Of a stretch of 64,000 nucleotides of DNA, positions 3,734 to 59,924 are shown in pieces. The translations under genes and the position numbers were made by a program. The notes beneath the pieces are model-generated. The model was not told where the DNA came from. It was given only the letters and a program-made list of their open reading frames with translations, and searched no databases. Location of the stretch: contig NC_042999.1 of NCBI RefSeq assembly GCF_006345805.1, positions 67,022,001-67,086,000 on the forward strand. Direction: 5' to 3'. The first letter of the stretch is position 1. Each line of letters begins with the position of its first letter. The stretch is from Octopus sinensis. Its lineage: Eukaryota.

Positions 3734-5259
3734 AAAAACAAACAAGATGAGGGCAAATATCTATCGAATGTAAATAATGTAAAAAATTACATAATTCCTC
3801 ATCTCTTAAATATAGAACTGTATAATTATACGTCTCTACATGTCACATTGTAAATTGTAGCTTTCCGCTAGTATTCGTTTGTCTTTTACGACAGTTGAAG
3901 TGGACTAAGGTGTTATAACAGAGGCAGTTGAATGTAGATCCGTGATCAGGTTCTTATAATTGATAGGTCGTACACCAAGAGACTTTCAAGGAGATTAAAG
4001 AAGGTTATGGTGACGATACACCATCATACAACGTAGTCAAATGCCAGCATCGCTAGTTAAAATGTGGTCGGACATCAGTGGAAACTGCTCCTATTCCTGG
4101 ACGACCACATTCCGCCATTGATGACGATACCATCCATAAAGTGGAAGCCTCCATTTTGGAGGATCACCGCATAATTATTCGGTAACTAGCCCAAGAAGTG
4201 AAGATAAGAGTAGGTTCCGTGGAAAAAAAAATATTCATGACCATTTGCACATGCGGAAATTGTCTACACGATGGATTACCCAGATGTTCACACCTTTTCA
4301 GAAGCAGGAATGAGTCAATCGTTCCCAGTCACTTTTTGGTAATGTGCCAAGAAAATGTGAAGGACTTTTTCGGAAGACTTATCACACAGGATGAAACATA
4401 GGTCTATCACTATGATCTTGAGACTAAAGTCCAGTTGAAGCAATGGAAACGTAATAACTCACCACCTCCAAAGAAGGCTTGTGTCCAACCTTCAGCAGGC
4501 ATGGTGATACTCAGTCTTTTGAGACCAGCGCGGAGTAGTGCCGATGGATTTTCTGGCAATGGGCACCACAATTAACGAGGCATATTATGCTTCTCTGCTG
4601 CAGAAATTGCAGGGCGCCCTCAAAGCAAAGAGGCGTGGCATGCTGACCAAAGAAGTCCACCTCCTCCAAAACAATGCCGCAGTTCACAATGCACATGTTG
4701 CTCAGACGAAAGCATACTCTTGCAACTATGAAATCTTTCTTCATCTTCCTTATTCTTCCGATCTTGCACCATCTGACTTCCTCCTCTTTCCAACCATGAA
4801 GTCTTTTTTTGAAGGGGAAGCACTTTTCAGATGATGATGACCTTATTTCCGAAGTAAAGTCTTGGCTCCAGACGCAACCTACCAGCTTCTCAACAGACGA
4901 GGTCTTCACAGCTTCATAAAGCAATGAGAGAAGTGTGTCACCATTGGTGGTGACTATGTAGAGAAGGATTAATAATTATGTCAAGTTTCGTTTATCCCAG
5001 TCCTTGGGAAGTGGGTCATGGGAAAACTTTAATGAACGCCCCTCGTACCCCAGTCCAGTCAAATATAAATCGGTAACGGACTGGAGACAGAATGTTGGCC
5101 TGCTTGCCTAACCAGTGGGGTGGCATCATTCAAAAGCTACCGCAATACGAGGAAGCGCATCGTGACCAATGGTGTATAATAACATATGATAATCTAGTCG
5201 ATACAGTGATATAAATTCATATATATATACATACATACATACATATAAAGATATATATA

Positions 5260-9737: not shown

Positions 9738-11245
9738 ATACATTCGAGCGTGGCCATTGCCAGTGCCATCTGACTGGCTCCTGTGCCAGTGACATGTAAA
9801 AAGCACCATTCGAGCATGGTCGTTGCCAGTGCCACCTGACTAGCCCTTGGGGCAGTGGCACATAAAAAACACCCACTACACTCTTGGGGTTATAGAAAAC
9901 CTTGCTAGAGCAGATTGGAGCCTGGTACAGCCTTCTGGCTTGACAGTCCACAGTCAAACCATCCAACCCATGCCAGCATGGAAAGCAGACGTTAAACGAC
10001 GACGACGATGATGGTGATGATGATGATGATGATAACGACAATGACGATGATGATGATGATGACGACAACGACGATGATGATGATGATGACAACAACGATG
10101 ATGATGGCGACGACGACGACAACAGCGGTGATGATGATACTAGTCATCTAGTATATGTAACTTGTGTATACTATGAAGTGTGTGAAGGCACATGGCTTAG
10201 TAGTTAGGGTATTTGGCTTATAGTTATAAGGTTGTGGGTTTGATTCCTGGTAGTATGTTGTGTCCTTGAGCAAGACACTTTATTTCATGTTGCTCCAGTC
10301 CACTCAGCTGGCAAAAATTAAGTTGTACCTGGAATTCAAAGGGGCCAGCATTATCACATTTGGTGTGCCATGCTGAATCTCCCTGAGAACTACATTAAGT
10401 ACAGATGTGATTGTGTAGTACTCAACCACCTGCATGTTAATTTTAAGAGCAGGCTGTGCCACAGTCCAGATCAACAGGAACACAAATCATCATAACCAAC
10501 GAAGTGCCAGTTACTATGAAGTGCATATATTACATCTAGTATATAGTATGTGTGAAAGAGTATGGCCTTGTGGTTGAGGCATGGGCTGGCAATAGTTAGA
10601 TCATGGGTTCAATCCCCAGGCCAGGTCACATGTAGTTTACTTGAATAAGTTACTTCATTTTACATTGTGCCAATCAATTTAGTTAAGACGAGTCCCAGTA
10701 AAGTACTGGGGTAGTTGTGCTATTTTAGATGTTCCACAGGGTCATTGACACCTCCTCAGACTTTCCAGTGGTCATTGGCCCTACTTCAGGCACTGGAAAG
10801 GGCCAAGGGATCTCAATGTCTGCTTACAATTGCACAGATGTCAAAACCAAAGCTTGAATGCATGGTACATGATACCAGGTTATACTGAAAATATGAGAGG
10901 CATACATTTAATCTATTGTGTGAAATAATCTAGTACATACCATGTACTACATCTGCTATGTAATATGCACTAGTTAATATATAGCTTAACAAGTACATAG
11001 ATCATGGAGTATAAACTATAAATGTATACACACACAGACTCAGACACACAAACACATGCATGCACACACACACACACACACATACACATACACATATATA
11101 TGTATATATATATATATATATATTAACAATTAAGGAACGGCCATAATAGGCCATTCACCCACTAGAAATAACAGCCAAAGCTTCTACCGCAAATAAAGAT
11201 TAATTCCGTAAACAGGAGAAAATTAAAAAAAACATTTACCCTGTA

Positions 11246-11352
11246 ATTTCTTGTACGGTATACCGTTTCATCCGCTGTTTAATGGTAAACTAACCTGATT
11301 AAATTAAATCAAGCCAATCTTCCATAAGCCCTCGGATTCTTCAGCAAGAAAT
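11246..11352 (-). ncRNA. Type I hammerhead ribozyme, array copy 1
   Basis: Minus strand: atttcttg-CTGAAGA-atccg...cggat-GAAAC-ggtatacc-GTA-caagaaat (stem I, core, stem II, GAAA, palindromic stem III, GUA site, stem I'). Confidence 0.88.
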
Positions 11353-11735
11353 AGCTCAAGTCGGAACAGATATTTACACGAGGCATACCCAATCTTGCCA
11401 AGGCAATATCTGACCTAAAATTTTCAAATCGTCGCACTCGCGCCAAATTTATCGGCAGCAATAAATATCAGCCGTCGATTCCATTACGGAATTAACCAAA
11501 AAATTCATAATTAATCAATATAGGGTGGCAAGGAAAATTTTGTGGAATTTTTTGCCACCAGCGGCCCAGTGGGAAAAAATTAAATAGTCATAGACCATTT
11601 TTAAGTTCAACATTAACAATTAAGGAACGGCCATAATAGGCCATTCACCCACTAGAAATAACAGCCAAAGCTTCTACCCGCAAATAAAGATTAATTCCGT
11701 AAACAGGAGAAAATTAAAAAAACATTTACCCTGTA

Positions 11736-11842
11736 ATTTCTTGTACGGTATACCGTTTCATCCGCTGTTTAATGGTAAACTAACCTGATTAAATTAAATC
11801 AAGCCAATCTTCCATAAGCCCTCGGATTCTTCAGCAAGAAAT
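11736..11842 (-). ncRNA. Type I hammerhead ribozyme, array copy 2
   Basis: Same motif as copy 1, 490 bp away. Confidence 0.88.
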
Positions 11843-12226
11843 AGCTCAAGTCGGAACAGATATTTACACGAGGCATACCCAATCTTGCCAAGGCAATATC
11901 TGACCTAAAATTTTCAAATCGTCGCACTCGCGCCAAATTTATCGGCAGCAAATAAATATCAGCCGTCGATTCCATTACGGAATTAACCAAAAAATTCATA
12001 ATTAATCAATATAGGGTGGCAAGGAAAATTTTGTAGAATTTTATTGCCACCAGCGGCCCAGTGGGAAAAAAATTAAATAGTCATAGACCATTTTTAAGTT
12101 CAACATTAACAATTAAGGAACGGCCATAATAGGCCATTCACCCACTAGAAATAACAGCCAAAGCTTCTACCGCAAATAAAGATTAATTCCGTAAACAGGA
12201 GAAAATTAAAAAACATTTACCCTGTA

Positions 12227-12333
12227 ATTTCTTGTACGGTATACCGTTTCATCCGCTGTTTAATGGTAAACTAACCTGATTAAATTAAATCAAGCCAATC
12301 TTCCATAAGCCCTCGGATTCTTCAGCAAGAAAT
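12227..12333 (-). ncRNA. Type I hammerhead ribozyme, array copy 3
   Basis: Same motif as copy 1. Confidence 0.88.
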
Positions 12334-12804
12334 AGCTCAAGTCGGAACAGATATTTACACGAGGCATACCCAATCTTGCCAAGGCAATATCTGACCTAAA
12401 ATTTTCAAATCGTCGCACTCGCGCCAAATTTATTTTTTTTAATTTTCTCCTGTTTACGGAATTAATCTTTATTTGCGGTAGAAGCTTTGGCTGTTATTTC
12501 TAGTGGGTGAATGGCCTATTATGGCCGTTCCTTAATTGTTAATGTTGAACTTAAAAATGGTCTATGACTATTTAATTTTTTCCCACTGGGCCGCTGGTGG
12601 CAATAAAATTCTACAAAATTTTCCTTGCCACCCTATATTGATTAATTATGAATTTTTTGGTTAATTCCGTAATGGAATCGACGGCTGATATTTATTTGCT
12701 GCCGATAAATTTGGCGCGAGTGCGACGATTTGAAAATTTTAGGTCAGATATTGCCTTGGCAAGATTGGGTATGCCTCGTGTAAATATCTGTTCCGACTTG
12801 AGCT

Positions 12805-12910
12805 ATTTCTTGCTGAAGAATCCGAGGGCTTATGGAAGATTGGCTTGATTTAATTTAATCAGGTTAGTTACCATTAAACAGCGGATGAAACGGTATACCG
12901 TACAAGAAAT
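12805..12910 (+). ncRNA. Type I hammerhead ribozyme, array copy 4
   Basis: atttcttg 12805-12812, CTGAAGA 12813-12819, atccg 12820-12824 pairing with cggat 12882-12886, GAAA 12887-12890, GTA 12900-12902, caagaaat 12903-12910. Confidence 0.88.
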
Positions 12911-13294
12911 TATAGGGTAAATGTTTTTTTAATTTTCTCCTGTTTACGGAATTAATCTTTATTTGCGGTAGAAGCTTTGGCTGTTATTTCTAGTGGGTGA
13001 ATGGCCTATTATGGCCGTTCCTTAATTGTTAATGTTGAACTTAAAAATGGTCTATGACTATTTAATTTTTTCCCACTGGGCCGCTGGTGGCAATAAAATT
13101 CTACAAAATTTTCCTTGCCACCCTATATTGATTAATTATGAATTTTTTGGTTAATTCCGTAATGGAATCGACGGCTGATATTTATTTGCTGCCGATAAAT
13201 TTGGCGCGAGTGCGACGATTTGAAAATTTTAGGTCAGATATTGCCTTGGCAAGATTGGCTATGCCTCGTGTAAATATCTGTTCCGACTTGAGCT

Positions 13295-13401
13295 ATTTCT
13301 TGCTGAAGAATCCGAGGGCTTATGGAAGATTGGCTTGATTTAATTTAATCAGGTTAGTTTACCATTAAACAGCGGATGAAACGGTATACCGTACAAGAAA
13401 T
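13295..13401 (+). ncRNA. Type I hammerhead ribozyme, array copy 5
   Basis: CTGAAGA 13303-13309, GAAA 13378-13381, GTA 13391-13393; stems as in copy 4. Confidence 0.88.
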
Positions 13402-13652
13402 TACAGGGTAAATGTTTTTTTAATTTTCTCCTGTTTACGGAATTAATCTTTATTTGCGGTAGAAGCTTTGGCTGTTATTTCTAGTGGGTGAATGGCCTAT
13501 TATGGCCGTTCCTTAATTGTTAATGTTGAACTTAAAAATGGTCTATGACTATTTAATTTTTCCCACTGGGCCGCTGGTGGCAATAAAATTCTACAAAATT
13601 TTCCTTGCCACCCTATATTGATTAATTATATATATATATATATATATATAAG

Positions 13653-13695
<43 letters not shown>

Positions 13696-13856
13696 GTATA
13701 TAAGGGCATCCAGCTGTAGAAACACTGCCAGATCAGACTGGAGCCTGGGGCAGCCCCTGGCTCCCCAGACCCCGGTCGAACCGTCCAACCCGTGCTAGCA
13801 CGGAAAACGGACGTTAAACGATGATGATGATGATGATGATGATATATGTATATATG

Positions 13857-33787: not shown

Positions 33788-34580
33788 AATCAAAGTAATT
33801 CACTGCTATATACCAGACTGTAAGAATGCACTTTTATTTTTATGGCTTCTAGGCCTATAATCACTACATGTGTGTGTGTGTATGTGCATGTATGTGTGTG
33901 TCTGTCTGTCTGTCTGTGTATGAGTATGAATATATACAGACACAAAATTCAGATACACATAAAACTAATACACACACACACACCTGTAAATGAACATATA
34001 TATATATATATAATGTACTATACTATCAATTATTGAATCAATAACTATTTCACATAGTCTGATAAATGTAATCAATTACTTCATAATGGAAGTGGTTATT
34101 GGCTGATTAAGTGTATTGATTTATAACTAGGTGGACTGTGCTTAAATTTCTTGAGCACAGATGCAATAAGTGGAACGATGCTATTAAGACTCGAGTGTCT
34201 TGTCAATAGTTAAGGTGCAAGCCCTGGTGGTCAAGATGTTGTACTGACGATCGTACAGTTGAAAGTTCAAATCCTGGACTAGGTGAGGCATTGTGTGTTT
34301 TAATATCACTCAAGTGTAATTAGTTCAAGTAAGTACTGATTGGGCAATGGTGTTGTCCTCTTTTCCTCCAGCTGTCTCTTCCTCGATGTTCCTGGGTCAA
34401 GAGAAGCAGAGCCAACAGAATGTCAATATCTGCTCTACACAACAAAGACACTTAAAACAATTACTGAAAACATGGCTCATGTTACAAGTCAGACTCCCTT
34501 GCATATGATGGCCAAAGATACTTTTTTTTTTATCTTGTCCATAGACAAATAATTCCAGGTGACATCTGCAAAGAGTTACT

Positions 34581-34825
34581 ATGCCACACACAAAAAATTC
34601 AGCAGAACTGTCAGATTTTCAAAGAGGTCATATTGTTGGGCAATCTGAGGCTGGTCTTAGCCAGCAAAAAATTGACGAAGATCTTCAAATTCCTCTTGCT
34701 ACTGTTAATAGAATTATAGTGCAATTCAAAAGTCAAGGAAAAGCATCAACAGATTCTCATCCCGGCCAACCTGGGCCCTCAAAAAGGAAACTTCGCTGTT
34801 TGAAGAGAATTGTGGAAAACAAAGT
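34581..34825 (+). mobile_element. Tc1-like transposase N-terminal fragment
   Basis: ELSDFQRGHIVGQSEAGLSQQKI..IPLATVNRIIVQFK..RKLRCLKRIV. Confidence 0.75.
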
Positions 34826-36300
34826 CCTTGTCATGTCTTGCCAAATTGCTTGCCTTTCCTCACTACTTTAACCTATACCTACTGACTCAAAGGAAGCCAC
34901 CTATAGCTGTTTTAAACAAGGCAATCACATAACCACAACTTCAACTGCTGTTCAAACTGGAATTTTGGTGGTGCACCTATTTGAGCACTCAGAACACATA
35001 CCTATTAATTTGAGTCATCTTGATGAAAACTCCTCATATCTTTTATATATAGATGATAGGCTTCCACACAGTTTCTGTTCACCAAATAATTCACTCACAA
35101 GGCATTGGTCAGCCTGGGGCTAGAGTAGAAGACATTTTCCCAAGGTGCCATGCAGTGGGACTGAACCCAAAATCCACGTGGTCGCAAAACAGGCTTCTTA
35201 ACCACACAGCCATGCCTGCACCTTCTGGCATATAAACTCATCTATCTTTTTTAATGCTTAATATACTCTAGAAAGATGAGTAATGAAAAAAGGATTATTT
35301 CTAAATACAAATTTAAAAGGGAAGTTATAAGCAAATGTTCCAAAACACATACACATACACAAACACACACGTGTGCACACATGCACACACACACACACAT
35401 GAACACACATGCACATACACACAGAGGCACATACACACACATGCACACTCTTTTTTATGTTCTTATCTATAATAATAAATGATGTTTCTTTTAAAGAAAA
35501 ATAAATAATATTTTTTTTAAATATAAAAGAACAGAGAAGGAATTATGTTACTGAAATGTATTCCATTTTATGAATTTTATGAATACACAATAGAAAGTTG
35601 ACAGAAAAATCCAATAATATTATTTTTTAAAGAACAAATTCAAAAATTTAATGAGGTGTCACGAAACACATTAATATTTCATTTTCTAAAATTTATTTTA
35701 TTCAACAGAATAAACATACAGCTGCAGATATGACTATGAAGTTACAAAGCACACTTCACACCCATAAGGCTTCAGATTCCCTCTCACTTCATGGAACCTT
35801 CGGCAAGTGTCTTCTACTTCTGTGATAGCCTCAGGCCAACCAAAACCTTATGATTGAATTTGGTAGGTGGAAATTGTGTGGAAGCCCATCGTATCGTCAT
35901 TATCATCATTTAATGTCTGCGTTCCATGGTGGCACAGATTGGATTGATTGACAGGATTTGATGTATCCAAGAACTACATCTTGCTCTAATTCTGCTTTGG
36001 CATGGTTTCTACAGCTGGATGCTCTTCCTAATATCATATATACATACATACATCATCATCATCATCATCATCATCGTTTAGCGTCCGTTTTCCATGCTAG
36101 CATGGGTTGGACGGTTCAACTGGGGTCTGTGAAGCCGGAAGGCTTCATCAGGCCTAGTCAGATCTGGCAGTGTTTCTACGGCTGGATGCCCTTCCTAACG
36201 CCAACCACTCCATGAGTGTAGTGAGTGCTTTTTATGTGCCACCCGCAAAGGTGCCAGACAGAGCTGGCAAACGGCCACGAATGGATGGTGCTTTTTATAC

Positions 36301-37142: not shown

Positions 37143-39470
37143 CTAGCAGTAATACCTGTCGTTTCTTGGGTATATCATATAGAAGAATAGCTTTATGGAA
37201 TCCAGTTGACTGCAATGGCAATGAAAAGGTTGCAGGTCAAGTGGAACATCAATGTTCCCATAGCAAAAGCATTGCACATCGTGCATTTGTTTGCTATTTG
37301 TTTTTTAGGGTCTCTTTTTAGCAGACATGTTTTTGGTTAGGGATATCAGTAAATAATAGTGAAATGAAATTACAAATAATTGTGTCAGTGCACAATTAGT
37401 GTTATACCATTGTGTAATTTTTGTTGAGACAAATTTGGCAATAGCATAATAGGAGACATACAAGAAGCATTACTTGTGTGCGCTGGTTTGGTGTTCGTGT
37501 TTTTTGACAGTCTCTCTTTAGTAGACATTTTTGCATTAGGAATATCAGTAAGTAATATCATCATCATCATCATCATCATCATTTAACGCCTGCTTTCCAT
37601 GCTAGCATGGGTTGGACGAATGACTGAGGGCTGGCAAACCAGATGGTTGCACCAGGCTTCAATCTTGATCTGGCAGAGTTTCTACAGCTGGATACCCTTC
37701 TTAACGCCAACCACTCCGAGAGTGTAGAGGGTGCTTTTACGTGCCACTGGCACGGGGGCCAGTCAGGCGGTACTGGCAACGACCTCGCTCGAACCTTTTA
37801 CACATGCCACCGGCACAGGTACCAGTAAGGCGATGCTGGTGAAATGAAATTACAAATGCTGTGTCCTGTTACTGTTGGTGCTGAAATTCTGACGATATAA
37901 TACAGGAATGGAAGGCAAGGTAACAGTAAGTAAAAGCCCATTGAAATTACAAATGCTGTGCCCTGTCAGTAAGATTTAGGTTTACTCATCCTGTATGTGT
38001 GTATTATATAAGAGAAAAGCATGTAATAATTGAAGCAGAAAAAAGATGGATTTCATATACAAACTTTTACTTCTTCTTCAAGTTGCAATCCAACAACTTT
38101 TAGTGTCTGGCCCTGACTTTTATTAATGCTCATATCAGAACCAAGAAGCTAGAAAAATGGGTATATCATATAGAAGAATAGCTTTATGGAATCCAGGTGA
38201 GTGCAAAGGCACTGAAAAGGCTACAGGTCAAGTGGAACATCCATTTGTCACTGTTCCTTTTGAAGTTTGAATAGGTGGTGGTATATCATGAATGAAGCTA
38301 GAAGAATAGCTATATCATATAGAAGAATAGCTTCAGGGAATCCAGGTGACTGTGCGATGGCACTGAGAAGGCCACAGGTGAAGTGGAAGACCCATTTGTT
38401 ATGGTTTCTTTTTACATTTGAATAGGCCGTATGCCCAAGGAGAATTGAAAGATTCAGTTTTAAATCTGAACCAGAGTGAGACTATGACTACAGATTTAGG
38501 CTTGTCCATGTCTCATCCTCATTTTCTGCTACACTTCATGCATTTTTTTGATGTTCGTTTTTTGACAGTCTTTTTTTAGTAGACAAATGCTGTGTCCTGT
38601 CACTGTTAGTGCTAAAATTCTGTCACTATATTACAGGAATGGAAGGCAAGGTAACAGTAAGTAAAAGCCCATTGAAATTACAAATGCTGTGTCCTGTCTG
38701 TCAGATTTAGGTTTACTTGTCCTGTATGTGTGTATTATATAAGAGAAAAACCTGTAATAATTGAAGTAGTAAAAAGAAGGATTTCATACACGAACTTCTG
38801 TCTGTTTAAGTTGGAATCCAGCAACTTTTATTGTTTGACCCTGACTTTTATTAATGCTCATGGCAAAAGAAAGTGGGATAAAATAAAATAAATAATGAAA
38901 TTATTGTATACAGTGCTCAGGTGCACCACAACTTGTCAGAAAGTGCATATAAAGTACATGCAGTAATGTAAAAATGTCTGGAAAGCGAACAATGTATGAG
39001 TCAGATACATGCCTGTGTGTGTATGGAGAGAGAAAATCAGGTGTAGTGTTGGCGAATCTCAGAAAGCATGGAAGTTTTGAAGGATGCAGTGCTCCGACAA
39101 CTAACAACTGATGCCGGCAGTTTGTTCCATGCTTCAGCAACTCTCAGCGTGAAAAAATGTTTCCTGAAGTCATGGGAGCTGTGCTGTTTTCTGACTTTGT
39201 AAATATGTCCATAGGTGTTAGATGGGTGGAGTTTGAAAAGGTGCTCAGAGTTATTGTTTGTACGATGGTTGATAATTTTATGGATAGGAAACTGTAAGAG
39301 CTTAGATTTGAATGGGACAATAGATGGTATAACTGGTATGCAAGGAACAAAGACAGAGTCACGTTTACCACAACCAGTGAGAATATTTGCTTCAATGCAG
39401 TTCATCATAGACTTGTGCACAATTAGTGTTGCCTCCCTTGAACCATTTACTTTCACTTTATGGGTCAAAC
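37143..39470 (-). mobile_element. Helitron remnant with PIF1-like helicase motifs and internal ~0.7-kb duplications
   Basis: NCIEANILTGCG..VFVPCIPVIPS..LLQFPI (~39285-39470) continues after a CR1 insertion as LSFAMSINKSQGQT (~38832-38875). A second MSINKSQGQT lies at ~38102-38133. The 3' end tattactgCTAG|t is at 37143. Confidence 0.8.
38893..39283 (-). mobile_element. CR1-clade LINE 3' fragment inserted in the Helitron
   Basis: Same family as 41491-42108 (RKHFFTLRVAEAWNKLP). Confidence 0.85.
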
Positions 39471-40622
39471 AAACATATGAAAGGACAGAATTTCATTTTT
39501 ATATATATAAATTATATACAGCATATTATAATGACCTACACGTGTTTCTGCTGCAGTGACTTACTCACTGTTGCAAATGCAACACTGCAATATAGTAATG
39601 TTGTCAGTGCAGCTTGTAGGGGGGTGGGGTGTATGTAAATATGTTTTTATGTTTGTACTACCCACATCTTGACAGCCAGTGTTAGTTTAGATCTCTGTAA
39701 CTTAGCAGCTTAGCAAAAGAGAATAAGTACTGAAGATGATTTATTCAGTTAAAAACCCCTTCAAGGTGATGCTCCAGCATGGCTGCAACCTAATGACTGA
39801 AAGAAATAAAAGATAAAGATTTAAAAATCCCTTTTATGACTGCATCTTTAATGAAAGTGAGTTTTTTTTTTTTTCAAATAACATGCTAAGAGAGGTAACT
39901 CAAATATGCCACAGGCATGAATTTTGTTAGATAAGTTACTAAGAAATTTACTGAATACTGTATGTAAAAATTCTTTTAATTTATGGGAATTTCTCTCTAA
40001 GTTAGAGTAAGAAAACAAAAACAAGTGACAATTCTTAAAGAAAAAAAGGAGACGATTTTTAAAAATATGAATTTATCACTCAGATTTGATCTTTATAAAT
40101 AAGGGACAACTATGGACATGTTTCAGTCCATTAGGTCTCTTCAACAGAATACAGTTTGTTCAAGCATACCTGATCAGCTAACAAAGATTTTTTACATATG
40201 GGGTAAAAAAACAGTTATGCATAATTTTTGTAAGAAATTGCACTACCAATTTGTCTCTAGTACTTTCAGAAGTAATCCAAATATTTAGCTGCATTTAGTA
40301 AAATAAATAAATTTTTATGTTTAAAGCTGGTATCTTGAACTTAAAATTATCATGAAATATTTTAATTAAAATATAAACAGTTGCAACAAATAGTTTTGTA
40401 TTAAAGAACCAAAGATACTATCAGCATATTTTCTTTTAATTGCTTAGTTAGAAGAGAAATAGCTATGTCCATTAACTTTTCTATAGCTGATTGGTTGAGA
40501 AATTCACTTCACAACCACAAGGTCCTGGGTTCAATCCTATTGAGGGGTATCTTTAGCAAATATCGTTCTCTATAGCCTTGAGTTAACCGATATCTTGTAA
40601 GAAAAATTTGGTATGCTCTTTT

Positions 40623-41490: not shown

Positions 41491-42108
41491 AAACTGAGGC
41501 TTTATATAGCTATGGTGCAGCCTCACCTGGAATTTGCATCACCGGTCTGGAACCCCTATCTTGCCCAGGATATTAATAATCTGGAAACCGTTCAGTGACA
41601 TGCAACCAAGAGAATACCCTCCATCAGGCATTTGCATTATTCTGAATGCCTTACTTCCCTGGGCATGGATACATTGAAACTCCAACGTCAAGCAACTGAC
41701 TTGGCACACACCCATAAAATTATTAACCATTTTACTAACAATAACTCTGAGCACCTTTTCAAACTCCACCTGTCTAACACCCGTGGACACGTTTACAAAA
41801 TCAGAAAACAGCACAGCTCCCATGACTTTCGGAAACATTTTTTCACGCTAAGAGTCGCTGAAGTGTGGAACAAACTACCAACATCAGTTGTTTGTTGTCA
41901 GAGCACTGCATCCTTCAAAACTTCCATGCTTCCTGAGATTCGCCAACACTACACCTGATTTTCTCCCCTCCATACACACGCATGCATATATCTGACTCAC
42001 ACACTGTTCGCTTTCCAGACATTTGTACATTACTGCATATACTTTATAAGCAATTTTGACAAGTTGTGGTGCACCAGAGCACTGTATACAATAATTTCAT
42101 TATTATTC
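41491..42108 (+). mobile_element. CR1-clade LINE 3' fragment
   Basis: LYIAMVQPHLEFASPVWNPY..TRGHVYKI..RKHFFTLRVAEVWNKLP..FKTS, then the 3' UTR ending aatttcattattatt. Confidence 0.88.
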
Positions 42109-42869: not shown

Positions 42870-43360
42870 GAGTGAGAGAGGAAGAGAGACAGACAGAGAG
42901 AGAGGGAGAGACTGACAAAGAGAGAGGGAAAGACAGACAGAGAGAGAGGGAGAGACAGCCAGAGAGAGAGGGAGAGACAGACAGACAGAGAGTGAGAGAC
43001 AGAGAGAGAGGGTGAGACAGACAGAGAGAGAGGGAGAGACAGACAGAGAGAGAGGGAGAGACAGCCAGAGAGAGAGGGAGAGACAGACAGAGAGAGATGG
43101 TGAGACAGACAGAGAGAGAGGGAGAGACAGCCAGAGAGAGAGGGAGAGATAGACAGAGAGGGAGAGACAGACACAGAGAGAGGGAGAGACAAACAGAGAG
43201 AGAGGGAGAGACAGACAGAGAGAGAGGGTGAGACAGACAGAGAGAGAGGGAGAGACAGCCAGAGAGAGAGGGAGAGACAGACAGACAGAGAGGGTGAGAC
43301 AGAGAGAGAGAGGGTGAGACAGACAGAAAAAGAGAGAGGGAGAGACAAAGAGAGAGAGAG
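42870..43360. repeat. GA-rich minisatellite (~20-26 bp, gggagagacagacagagagaga)
   Basis: Directly visible; explains the Ser/Leu-rich ORFs in 42491-43399. Confidence 0.95.
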
Positions 43361-50731: not shown

Positions 50732-51670
50732 TGATGAAATTATTGTATACAGTGCTCAGGTGCACCACAACTTGTCAAAAGTGCGTATAAAGTATATTCA
50801 GTAATGTACAAATGTCTGGAAAGCGAACAGTGTATGAGTCAGATACATGTGTGTGTATGGAGAGGAGAAAATCAGGTGTAGTGTTGGCGAATCTCAGGAA
50901 GCATGGAAGTTTTGAAGGATTCAGTGTTCCGACAACTAACAACTGATGCCGGCAGTTTGTTCCATGCTTCAGCAACCCTTAGCGTGAAAAAATGTTTCCG
51001 AAAGTCATGCCACCTGTGCCGGTGGCATGTGTAAAAAGATTCAAGCGAGGTCATTGCCAGTACTGCCTGACTGGCTTCCCGTGCTGGTGGCACATAAAAG
51101 CACCCATTATACTCTCGGAGTGGTTGGCGTTAGGAAGGGCATCCAGCTGTAGAAACACTGCCAGATCAAGACTGGAGCCTGGTGCAGCCATCTGGTTCGC
51201 CAGCCCTCAGTCGAAATCGTCCAACCCAAGCTAGCACGGAAAGCGGACATTAAACGATGATGATGATGGGAGCTATGCTGTTTTCTGATTTTGTAAACAT
51301 GTCCACGGGTGTTAGACAGGCGGAGTTTAAAAAGGTGCTCAGAGTTATTGTTTGTAAGATGGTTAATAATTTTATGGGTATCTACCAAGTCAGCTGCCAG
51401 ACGTTGGAGTTTCAATGTATCCATGCCCAGGGAAGTAAGGCGTTCAGAATATGGCAGATGCCTGAAGGCGGGTATTCTCTTGGTTGCACGTCGCTGAATG
51501 GCTTCCAGACAATTAATATCCTGGGCAAGATAGGGGTTCCAGATTTGTGATGCAAATTCCAGGTGAGGTCATACCATAGCTATATACAGCCGCAGATAGA
51601 TAGCCGGAGAGTGGCTCACAAAGGACTTGGTGAGTAATGCCAAAACACCCTCAGCCTTCTTGGCAATTTT
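50732..51670 (-). mobile_element. CR1-clade LINE 3' fragment interrupted by a (GAT)n-tailed element (~51010-51268)
   Basis: Same family. The ORF tracks 51107-51424 and 50872-51093 rejoin across the insertion. Confidence 0.85.
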
Positions 51671-53676: not shown

Positions 53677-53738
<62 letters not shown>

Positions 53739-54195
53739 TATAAAGTGGTGAGCTGGCAGAATCGTTAGAATGCCAGGTGAAATGCTTTGTGGTATTTCGT
53801 CCTTCTTTCCATTCTGAGTTCAAATTCCAGTGAGGTTGACTTTGCCTTTCATTCTTTCAGGGTTGATGAAATAAGCACCAGTTGAAAACTAGGGCTGATG
53901 AAATTGCCTAGCCCCCTCCCCTCAAATTTAGGGCCTTGTGCTAATAGTAGAAAGTTTTGTTATTATTATTATTATTATTTATAGGTGGTAAACTGGCAGA
54001 ATCATTAATATGCCAAGCAAAATGCTCAGCAGCATTTCATCTGTTTACACATCCCGAGTTCAAATTCTGCCAAGGTCAACTTTGCCTTTCATCCTCTCAA
54101 GGTCAATAAAATAAGCACCCATTGAGCACTGGGGTCAATGTAACCAACTTACCCCCTCTCCCAAACTTGCTGGCCTTGTGTCAAAATTTGAAACC
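52883..54195 (+). mobile_element. Four head-to-tail SINE family B copies separated by (TTA)n
   Basis: Starts at ~52883, 53113, 53745 and 53983, each preceded by att/gtt repeats. Confidence 0.8.
53345..53646 (-). mobile_element. R4/Dong-clade LINE 3' fragment (restriction-like endonuclease end plus 3' UTR) in (TAA)n
   Basis: DLEIEVTRMW..IPIIVGALG..IQKIALLGTAHILRRTL*, flanked on both sides by TTA repeats. Confidence 0.8.
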
Positions 54196-59121: not shown

Positions 59122-59924
59122 CAGTTGTGGCCAAAAGTCTGGAACATTTTTTAAAGAATTAAAATTGTTATTCCCAAATACAATTTCATTCAAATACATA
59201 CAAATGTAGAGATAGACCTACCTAATTATTTTCAGACTTATGTTCCAGACTGTTGGACAAGAAATAATTTTTTTTTACTTGTTTCAGTATTTGACTGTGG
59301 CCATGCTGGAGCACTGCCTTTAGTTGAGCAAATCAACCCCAGGACTTATTCTTTGTAAGCCTAGTACTTATTCTATTGGTCCCTTTTACCAAACCACTAA
59401 GTTACAGGGACATAAACACACCAGCATCAGTTGTCAAGCGATGTTGGAGGGACAAACACAGACACACAAACATGTACACATATATATATATACATATATA
59501 CGACAGGCTTCTTTCAGTTTCCATCTACCAAATCCACTCACAAGGCTTTGGTCAGCCAGAGGCTTTAATAGAAGACACTTGCCCTAGGTGCCATGCAGTG
59601 GGACTGAACCTGGAACCATGTGGTTTGCAAGCAAGCTACTTACCACATAGCCACTCCTACACCTATGTTGCAAATCAAAAAAACTTTAGCATTTAATATG
59701 AAAATTCTAATTTTCAAACCTATGTTCCAAAGTTTGGGCCAAGGAATATTATATAGCAAATGAAATATAACTTTGGGCATTTAATATAAAAATTCTAATT
59801 TTCAAACCTATGTTCTAAATTTGGGGCCAAGGAATAATATATAGCAAATGAAATATAACTTTGGGCATTTAATATAAAAATTCTAATTTTCAAACCTATG
59901 TTCCAAAGTTTTGGCCATGACTAT
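59122..59924. mobile_element. Tc1-type MITE with nested SINE and three ~90-bp subterminal tandem repeats
   Basis: TIRs cagttgtggccaaaagtctggaacat / atgttccaaagttttggccatgacta. Repeats at ~59690-59920. SINE at 59276-59659. Confidence 0.6.

What the first reader, a model, noticed from the sequence alone, without database searches (positions are those of the whole stretch)
11122..13629. Young retrozyme-like array: ~490-nt non-coding units carrying five complete hammerhead ribozymes
Seen: about 5.1 near-identical ~490-bp units with no meaningful ORF. Five copies of stem I (atttcttg/caagaaat), core CUGAAGA, stem II (atccg/cggat), GAAA, palindromic stem III (ACGGUAUACCGU) and a GUA cleavage triplet are present. 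Each unit has further hairpins (e.g. ggtggcaa 12015-12022 / ttgccacc 12044-12051). CpGs are retained, unlike in the flanks. Established: tandem type I HHR repeats (non-LTR retrozymes, Penelope pLTRs) are transcribed, self-cleave to monomers, can circularise, and are thought to be mobilised by Penelope-like RTs. Inference: this is a recently active family producing ~490-nt linear or circular RNA. The unit is long compared with the few-hundred-nt animal retrozyme monomers I know of, and may be undescribed in this lineage.
Basis: partly seen in the sequence, partly recalled or inferred. Interest (0 to 1): 0.92.

Follow-up and report, generated by a model that had tools for sequence, protein, structure and literature searches.

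The report
Octopus hammerhead retrozyme with two-ended insertions
This is a young octopus jumping element made of a 491-base self-cutting RNA, and its genomic copies carry the footprint of a Penelope-type reverse transcriptase that appears to copy one circular RNA from both broken DNA ends at once, possibly writing RNA edits back into the genome.

Summary
The five type I hammerheads are real (3 on -, 2 on +), with compensatory changes in all stems. The stretch is not a plain tandem: it is one insertion with two divergent arms (2.7 and 2.4 units) in a (TA)n tract. The host is Octopus; the family has 488 exact ribozyme cores. It is a non-LTR retrozyme, a known class, and 491 nt is within the known size range.

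The new part is the insertion anatomy, from 62 insertions. Arms end at two fixed internal sites, about 131 and 237 nt past the cut. 45 of 48 inverted insertions use one site at each end; none uses the same site twice. This matches the Penelope-like (PLE) 'tail' signature, and two young autonomous PLEs here share the target and two-site ends. All units in both arms share one haplotype while loci differ, and joins across the cut site are seamless. That points to rolling-circle reverse transcription of one circular monomer. Locus-fixed changes are biased to A>G on the RNA strand (17 vs 6), as ADAR editing would give. Expression, cleavage, the circle and the helper's identity are not shown.

The parts
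11122..12433 (-). Left arm, 2.67 units. Its RNA-sense 3' end (11122) is at priming site S1 (monomer nt 131, counting from the cut); its inner end is at monomer nt 293
12434..13629 (+). Right arm, 2.44 units. Its inner end is at monomer nt 22; its RNA-sense 3' end (13629) is at priming site S2 (monomer nt 237)
12433..12434 (.). Inversion junction between the two arms, blunt, inside a T run
12903..13393 (+). One cut-to-cut monomer, 491 nt; folds at -148.7 kcal/mol (z -4.6) as a line and -144 kcal/mol (z -6.4) as a circle
12805..12910 (+). Type I hammerhead 4; predicted cut after 12902
13295..13401 (+). Type I hammerhead 5; predicted cut after 13393
12227..12333 (-). Type I hammerhead 3; predicted cut after 12235
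11736..11842 (-). Type I hammerhead 2; predicted cut after 11744
11246..11352 (-). Type I hammerhead 1; predicted cut after 11254
13315..13372 (+). 58-nt insert in stem II of hammerhead 5, predicted to fold into a long hairpin (98% of cells paired, but no two-sided change)
13381..13392 (+). 12-nt palindromic stem III; 4-bp hairpin (-2.9 kcal/mol) or 12-bp intermolecular duplex (-18.8 kcal/mol)
11122..11156 (-). S1 end used here: an 8-bp hairpin followed by the strand that in the full monomer leads into a 7-nt loop of a multibranch domain; a similar fold is predicted in subfamily A2 and family B
13576..13629 (+). S2 end used here: GGTGGCAA/TTGCCACC hairpin, then the unpaired CACCC-AT-rich motif shared with family B (23 of 26 nt)
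11094..11121 (.). Left (TA)n target tract
13630..13702 (.). Right (TA)n target tract

Best explanation
A non-autonomous non-LTR retrozyme. Steps: (1) arrays are transcribed and the hammerheads cut the RNA to 491-nt monomers, probably as double hammerheads through the palindromic stem III [structure shown; cleavage inferred]. (2) A monomer is ligated to a circle [inferred]. (3) A Neptune/Nematis-type PLE protein (RT plus GIY-YIG) cuts both strands of a (TA)n tract and primes reverse transcription from both DNA ends, one at site S1 and the other at site S2, 106 nt apart on the RNA [end pattern shown; enzyme inferred]. (4) Both cDNAs run round the same circle 0.1 to 11.6 times, giving two arms of one haplotype [haplotype pattern and seamless joins shown; circle inferred]. 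(5) The two inner ends are joined by microhomology or short templated inserts, as in end-joining repair [junctions shown; pathway inferred]. A sub-claim at about 0.5: part of the variation between insertions is A-to-I editing of the RNA, copied into DNA.
For: Hammerhead covariation: 8 pairs with two-sided change, 97.9% of cells paired against 26-42% for slid controls (mainly one A-versus-A2 contrast). 103 of 106 arm 3' ends lie at nt 120-135 or 228-247, none at the cut. 48 of 62 insertions are inverted; 45 of 48 are S1 plus S2 and 0 repeat a site; in the other 3, one end lies at neither site. In the 34 loci taken in genome order, 28 are inverted. 93 of 106 outer flanks are TA-rich. The same split is seen in 5 of 5 family B insertions with both ends fetched and 2 of 2 inverted PLE-B insertions. 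Two young intact RT+GIY-YIG families end in (TA)n at two sites about 40 nt apart. A purified PLE cuts and extends both strands and starts at two internal sites (PMC11167929). Differences at 44 polymorphic sites: 0.34 per unit pair within an arm, 0.30 between arms, 4.2 between loci; 74 of 74 locus-fixed variants covered by both arms are in both; 25 of 41 are private to one locus; 30 haplotypes in 42 loci. Indel rate across the cut site is ordinary, 0.068 against a median of 0.055, over 278 joins. Fixed A>G 17 against T>C 6, p 0.0016; 13 against 4 when polarised with A2, p 0.004; 5' U enriched, p 0.019; no such excess in single-unit changes (9 vs 17) or in PLE copies.
Against: No expression, cleavage or circle is shown. 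Only 1 of 9 predicted Xenopus retrozyme dimers cut in vitro. Rfam score is below cut-off. Position 10.1-11.1 is A-U, not the usual G-C, and is unpaired in the 5 A2 rows. No significant sequence similarity links family A to either PLE, and no hammerhead was found in the 4 PLE units scanned, so the helper is not identified. In vitro the anole PLE showed no difference in start site between strands and started without homology to the target, whereas here the sites are split between ends and end in AT. 28 of 106 inner ends fall 1-30 nt past the cut (p 3e-11), which fits run-off from a cut linear RNA as well as pausing at stem I on a circle. The A>G test rests on 23 sites; 5' G depletion is not significant (p 0.075). 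The assembly has visible indel noise.
Confidence: 0.72

Rival explanations
1. Same element and PLE helper, but the template is a long linear multimeric transcript from a homogeneous donor array, 5'-trimmed by one hammerhead cut and primed at both target ends; no circle is needed.
For: 28 of 106 inner ends lie 1-30 nt after the cut. Hammerhead cleavage is not needed for insertion by the anole PLE in vitro, where unprocessed RNA is the main substrate. Seamless joins fit this model too.
Against: It cannot fix a new mutation in every unit, yet 25 of 41 locus-fixed variants are private and 30 haplotypes occur in 42 loci. A monomer bottleneck is needed at most generations.
Confidence: 0.13
2. Mobilised by a microsatellite-targeting LINE through twin priming rather than by a PLE.
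For: Family A shares no significant sequence with PLE-A or PLE-B. Recently active Dong-R4, CR1, RTE and L1-Tx1 LINEs are listed for Octopus vulgaris. Twin priming gives 5' inversions in L1 (recalled).
Against: Two fixed internal 3' ends, no poly(A) or repeat tail, and about 80% inversion match the PLE 'tail' and inverted structures, described as not seen in LINE TPRT. The local PLEs show the same ends and target.
Confidence: 0.06
3. Short insertions later expanded and homogenised at DNA level (unequal crossing-over, gene conversion), as for a satellite.
For: Proposed for retrozyme tandems in 10.64898/2026.07.22.740005. One locus shows a DNA-level duplication that includes its TA flank (L061).
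Against: Copies are 96-99.7% identical for most arms, both inverted arms share the haplotype (74 of 74), and arrays are dispersed over many contigs with intact S1 and S2 ends. It does not explain the strand-biased A>G.
Confidence: 0.06
4. The inversions are artefacts of long-read fold-back or collapsed assembly.
For: The assembly has indel noise, and one duplicated segment was met (L113/L114).
Against: Flanks are not mirrored, the two arms end at different fixed sites, inner ends differ, and junctions carry templated inserts.
Confidence: 0.02

Closest known systems
Metazoan non-LTR retrozymes (coral, Mytilus, axolotl; PMC7229834; vertebrate survey 10.64898/2026.07.22.740005)
   Same: Non-coding tandem units, low GC, one type I hammerhead per unit, highly paired monomer, dispersed, coexisting with PLEs; size within 51-972 bp.
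   Different: Divergent two-arm insertions, two fixed priming sites, (TA)n targeting and one haplotype per insertion are not described in the parts read ('inverted' occurs 0 times in PMC7229834). PMC7761336 says these repeats show no motif that points to their helper. Stem II here holds a 58-nt insert. No cephalopod was sampled in the text read.
EN+ Penelope-like elements (Poseidon PAc, PMC11167929; Neptune, Nematis, Naiad, PMC8557442)
   Same: Partial tandems, an inverted 5'-truncated copy, AT-rich or (TA)n targets, two internal reverse-transcription start sites downstream of a hammerhead, tail often on one end only.
   Different: No ORF. The tail is 106 nt rather than 30-40 nt. The one-site-per-end rule is counted here (45 of 48, none same-site); PAc in vitro showed no strand difference in start site. 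No sequence similarity to the two local PLEs.
Non-autonomous Chlamys elements such as MRC1 (PMC8557442)
   Same: Non-autonomous PLE partners with multicopy head-to-tail insertions.
   Different: Those share 3' sequence with their helper and lack canonical hammerheads; this family has a hammerhead and no detectable helper sequence.
Dimer-cleaving type I hammerheads of newt satellite 2 and PLE min-HHRs (PMC4209133)
   Same: Palindromic stem III able to form a double hammerhead.
   Different: Stem III here is longer (12-nt palindrome, 4 bp possible as a monomer), stem I is 8 bp, and stem II is extended.

Membership tests
Type I hammerhead ribozyme | Conserved core CUGANGA, GAAA, UH with three helices and open stem I | tested here: met
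   5 of 5 copies; 0 hits in 5 shuffled windows
Type I hammerhead ribozyme | Covariation in the helices | tested here: met
   Two-sided changes in 4 stem I, 2 stem II and 2 stem III pairs across 14 rows; same changes in public contigs. Mostly a single A-versus-A2 contrast.
Type I hammerhead ribozyme (Rfam RF00163) | Score at or above the gathering cut-off | tested here: not met
   21.5 and 21.4 bits against 34; the 58-nt insert is penalised
Type I hammerhead ribozyme | Self-cleavage at the NUH triplet | not testable with these tools
   Needs in vitro transcription; the fold costs 3.2 kcal/mol over the minimum in the circle
Non-LTR retrozyme | Tandem non-coding units, each with a type I hammerhead, at least two in a row | tested here: met
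Non-LTR retrozyme | Dispersed multicopy family | tested here: met
   488 exact cores, control 0; 266 matches in 35 of 993 candidates scored
Non-LTR retrozyme | Highly self-paired monomer | tested here: met
   z -4.6 linear, z -6.4 circular
Non-LTR retrozyme | Accumulates as linear and circular monomer RNA | tested here: inconclusive
   Only assembled contigs of guessed type were available; they cannot show ends, strand or level
Non-LTR retrozyme | Target-site duplication | tested here: inconclusive
   Insertions sit in (TA)n, so a duplication cannot be read
PLE-mobilised element | Two internal 3' ends (tail signature) | tested here: met
   103 of 106 ends at S1 or S2
PLE-mobilised element | Tandem plus inverted 5'-truncated copy; AT-rich or microsatellite target | tested here: met
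   48 of 62 inverted; 93 of 106 TA-rich flanks
PLE-mobilised element | Active autonomous PLE in the same genome | tested here: met
   Two families with intact 775-781 aa RT+GIY-YIG frames, best copies 98-100% identical
Derivative of a PLE pseudo-LTR | Sequence similarity to a PLE terminus | tested here: not met
   Family A against PLE-A and PLE-B: 4 of 30 and 23 of 30 shuffles score as high. Only these two families were tested in full; others exist.
Autonomous PLE | RT and GIY-YIG ORF | tested here: not met
   No frame over 68 aa inside the array

The most novel reading that the evidence does not exclude
A circular ribozyme RNA, edited by the octopus's ADAR, is reverse-transcribed by rolling circle by a dimeric Penelope-type RT that primes the two ends of one (TA)n break at two structurally defined sites on the same circle. 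RNA edits are thereby copied into every unit of each new germline insertion. At least three sequence-unrelated retrozyme families in this genome have converged on the same two-site handle, which gives a general rule for PLE integration (one start site per DNA end) and a route from RNA editing to heritable DNA change.
Probability: 0.3. Interest if true: 0.88.

Novelty: new variant of a known kind. Interest (0 to 1): 0.68.

Why it matters
How animal retrozymes are mobilised, and whether the circle is the template, are stated as open hypotheses in the papers read. How PLEs make their tandem, inverted and tailed insertions is also open. This family gives genomic evidence on all three and names the reagents for a direct test: a 491-nt RNA with two mapped start sites, a (TA)n target and two intact candidate proteins. 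If the A>G bias is ADAR editing, it would be a measurable case of RNA edits entering the germline genome in an animal group known (from memory) for very heavy editing.

Tried and rejected
Expression: no RNA holder listed. The 4 of 19 runs laid were contigs of guessed or unknown type. One 521-nt contig closes on itself (490+31), which fits a circle or a tandem equally; not used as evidence. A>G outnumbered T>C in one run (28 vs 11) and not in another (10 vs 19); not used.

An 18-nt antisense match between S1 and the PLE-A ORF (17 of 18 nt, E 0.53) was rejected as chance (4 of 30 shuffles as high). Family B against PLE-B exceeded 30 of 30 shuffles by a small margin (35 vs 32) and was not followed up.

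Template jumping between linear monomers was rejected: joins across the cut have no excess of indels. Two independent insertions back to back were rejected: shared haplotypes, no TA between the arms, no same-site pairs. RT error bias as the source of A>G is weakened by the PLE controls.

Rfam found no ribozyme in four PLE-bearing loci, only low-complexity miRNA noise; it also missed the family B and C hammerheads that lie in two of them. Minimal-hammerhead scans of 4 PLE units were empty. The window has no evident host gene (frames listed, not scanned against Pfam). Earlier scan notes: nothing.

Literature searches listed no paper whose title or abstract describes a cephalopod retrozyme, inverted retrozyme insertions or ADAR-edited retrozyme copies. 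Dfam and Repbase could not be searched. Older subfamily and family B/C loci were fetched only as short stretches, so several ends are cut off.
Full report
Observation. The window holds five complete type I hammerhead motifs and no others by my descriptor; five shuffled windows gave none. Tandem Repeats Finder splits the stretch into 11122-12433 (period 491, 2.7 copies) and 12434-13629 (period 490, 2.4 copies). These lie on opposite strands, with the RNA-sense 3' ends pointing outward into (TA)n tracts. CpG o/e is 1.14 against 0.47 for the window. The cut-to-cut monomer is 491 nt and folds better than all 100 shuffles (z -4.6; circular z -6.4). Rfam misses it at gathering score and gives Hammerhead_1 21.5 of 34 bits.

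The ribozyme fold is conserved. In an alignment of 9 family A rows and 5 rows of an older subfamily A2 (83% identical), 97.9% of cells pair, with two-sided changes in 4 stem I, 2 stem II and 2 stem III pairs; slid controls pair at 26-42%. This is largely one A-versus-A2 contrast, so it counts as 8 changes, not 36. One change is at the centre of the palindrome (AU to GC), which matters only if two hammerheads pair with each other; the duplex is -18.8 kcal/mol against -2.9 for the hairpin. A double hammerhead is therefore likely (inference; mechanism described in PMC4209133, passages). The 10.1-11.1 pair is A-U and is broken in the A2 rows. Cleavage is untested, and only 1 of 9 predicted Xenopus dimers cut in vitro.

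Host and family. An SLX1 exon from this genome is 100% identical over 61 aa to an Octopus vulgaris protein, and 79% to Argonauta, so the host is an Octopus. The exact 26-nt core occurs 488 times, control 0. The first 100 cores fall in 34 loci, which extrapolates to about 165 insertions (my arithmetic). Contigs from two other organism codes cover all 29 bins of the unit. Unit length is not unusual: 51-972 bp in 10.64898/2026.07.22.740005 (parts 1-3 of 5 read; supplements not seen).

Insertion anatomy. I fetched 60 loci: 34 from the best-scoring candidates and 26 more from the genome-ordered list. With the window they hold 62 insertions at 90% identity or more. Numbering from the cut, 103 of 106 arm 3' ends lie at nt 120-135 (S1, mode 131; 53) or 228-247 (S2, mode 237; 50); none lies at the cut. 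48 of 62 insertions are inverted, always divergent (43 with two long arms, 5 with a 14-21 nt second arm); 13 are single-armed and 1 is a direct duplication. 45 of the 48 have S1 at one end and S2 at the other; none has the same site twice. Independent choice would give this with probability about 3e-14 (my arithmetic). The other 3 have one end at neither site, beside an assembly gap or non-TA sequence. In the 34 genome-ordered loci, 28 are inverted. 93 of 106 outer flanks are TA-rich. Of 43 inner junctions, 25 show 1-20 nt overlap, 5 are blunt, 5 have 1-5 nt inserts and 8 have longer inserts largely copied from nearby.

The PLE signature. PMC11167929 (parts 1-2 of 4, passages, and a text search of supplements; figures not seen) shows that a PLE protein cuts and extends both strands of AT-rich DNA and starts at two internal RNA sites that define a 30-40 nt tail. 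PMC8557442 (passages) describes partial tandems, inverted 5'-truncated copies, a tail often on one end only, and (TA)n preference. This genome has two young families with intact RT plus C-terminal GIY-YIG frames (781 and 775 aa; Pfam RVT_1 just under cut-off, GIY-YIG over). Both carry a CxxxxCxxC linker, as in Neptune/Nematis; no tree was built. Both end in (TA)n at two sites about 40 nt apart, and both inverted PLE-B insertions seen (L133, L140) use one site at each end. PLE-B ends resemble the retrozyme ends by eye (TTAAT at S1; CACCC then AT-rich at S2), but overall similarity is not significant and neither PLE has a detectable hammerhead. The helper is a candidate, not identified.

Other families do the same. 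Family B (534 nt, unrelated except 23 of 26 nt at S2) splits S1 and S2 in 5 of 5 insertions with both ends fetched (6 examined). A2 does so in 2 of 2 with both ends fetched (9 examined). Family C does so in 5 of 6 read by eye. A, A2 and B are predicted to fold alike around S1: a multibranch domain with S1 at a 7-nt loop, then a hairpin ending at S2. This suggests recognition by shape (inference). PMC7761336 (passages) states that animal retrozymes show no motif that points to their helper.

One monomer per insertion. Among 217 near-full units, differences at 44 polymorphic sites average 0.34 within an arm, 0.30 between the two arms and 4.2 between loci. All 74 locus-fixed variants covered by both arms occur in both. 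25 of 41 fixed variants are private to one locus, and 42 multi-unit loci hold 30 haplotypes. A private change can fill every unit only through a single-monomer bottleneck. The 278 joins across the cut site have an ordinary indel rate, which argues against end-to-end jumping. A continuous template plus a monomer bottleneck is most simply a circle, the model proposed in PMC7229834 (parts 2-4 of 6 and passages; supplement unreadable, and it may bear on cephalopods). Against this, 28 of 106 inner ends lie 1-30 nt after the cut (expected about 6.5; the best other 30-nt window has 10). The mode at nt 8-9 is the edge of stem I, so pausing on a circle and run-off from a cut RNA both fit.

Possible editing. 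Of 41 locus-fixed changes, 17 are A>G and 6 T>C on the ribozyme strand, although the unit has 129 A and 183 T (p 0.0016). Polarised with A2 the count is 13 to 4 (p 0.004). The A>G sites favour a 5' U (p 0.019) and paired surroundings (p 0.025); 5' G depletion is not significant (p 0.075). Single-unit changes (9 vs 17) and PLE-A and PLE-B copies show no A>G excess. A_deamin domains are present in the genome (17 matches; ADAR and ADAT were not separated). ADAR's neighbour preferences and heavy cephalopod editing are recalled, not from a call. The sample is small and several tests were run on the same sites; I put this at about 0.5.

Novelty. The class is known. Searches listed no paper on cephalopod retrozymes, inverted retrozyme insertions or edited copies. 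The O. vulgaris repeat paper PMC13282606 (passages and one supplement) never uses 'ribozyme' or 'retrozyme', but its library, Dfam and Repbase were not searchable and may hold the unit under another label. Inversions and tails are known for PLEs. What appears new is their strict, countable form in a retrozyme, the evidence for a monomer template, and the editing signal.

Noticed in passing
L113 7255-8375; L151-L155: Family B: 534-nt retrozyme, type I hammerhead with 43-nt stem II insert and GUC triplet, copies about 99% alike, 544 search candidates; same inverted two-site insertions.
   Followed up: partly
L118 7790-8880; L156-L160; related motifs at L114 1851 and L067 3855: Family C: hammerhead repeat with 42-nt stem II insert, 3713 candidates, 94-97% alike, mostly single units with a short inverted arm; unit length not determined.
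   Followed up: partly
L066 3535 and 3883 (-); L118 7521 (+); L031 3549; L048 2120; L094 2621: Further type I hammerheads: a canonical short-loop family with about 350-nt spacing and three other motifs. Every family seen has a palindromic or near-palindromic stem III.
   Followed up: no
L111-L115, L119-L129: PLE-A: young 781-aa RT+GIY-YIG family with an upstream overlapping 479-aa frame and a long 3' UTR with internal repeats; no hammerhead found.
   Followed up: partly
L118, L131-L142: PLE-B: young 775-aa family; nearest listed proteins are 64-65% identical and named relatives are bivalve; several are filed under bacterial gill-symbiont names, probably host contamination.
   Followed up: partly
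L113 and L114 (C6, about 26.5 kb apart): Two 9.8-kb stretches 98.6% identical: a recent segmental duplication or an assembly duplicate.
   Followed up: no
L054, L068, L071: Older A2-like insertions lie within about 1 kb of young family A insertions, and retrozymes lie next to PLE copies (L113, L118): repeated use of the same TA-rich sites.
   Followed up: no
L093, L108: Decayed GIY-YIG elements of another type, unlike PLE-A and PLE-B, so further PLE clades are present.
   Followed up: no
window 4514-4975, 34563-34868, 39040-39492, 41599-41955, 51110-51568: Frames that look like decayed transposase and LINE C-terminal fragments, by eye; not scanned.
   Followed up: no
window 42874-43360; 38145-38426; 53719-54180; 59670-59917: Other tandem repeats with periods 22, 151, 240 and 88 nt; none carries a hammerhead by the descriptor.
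   Followed up: no
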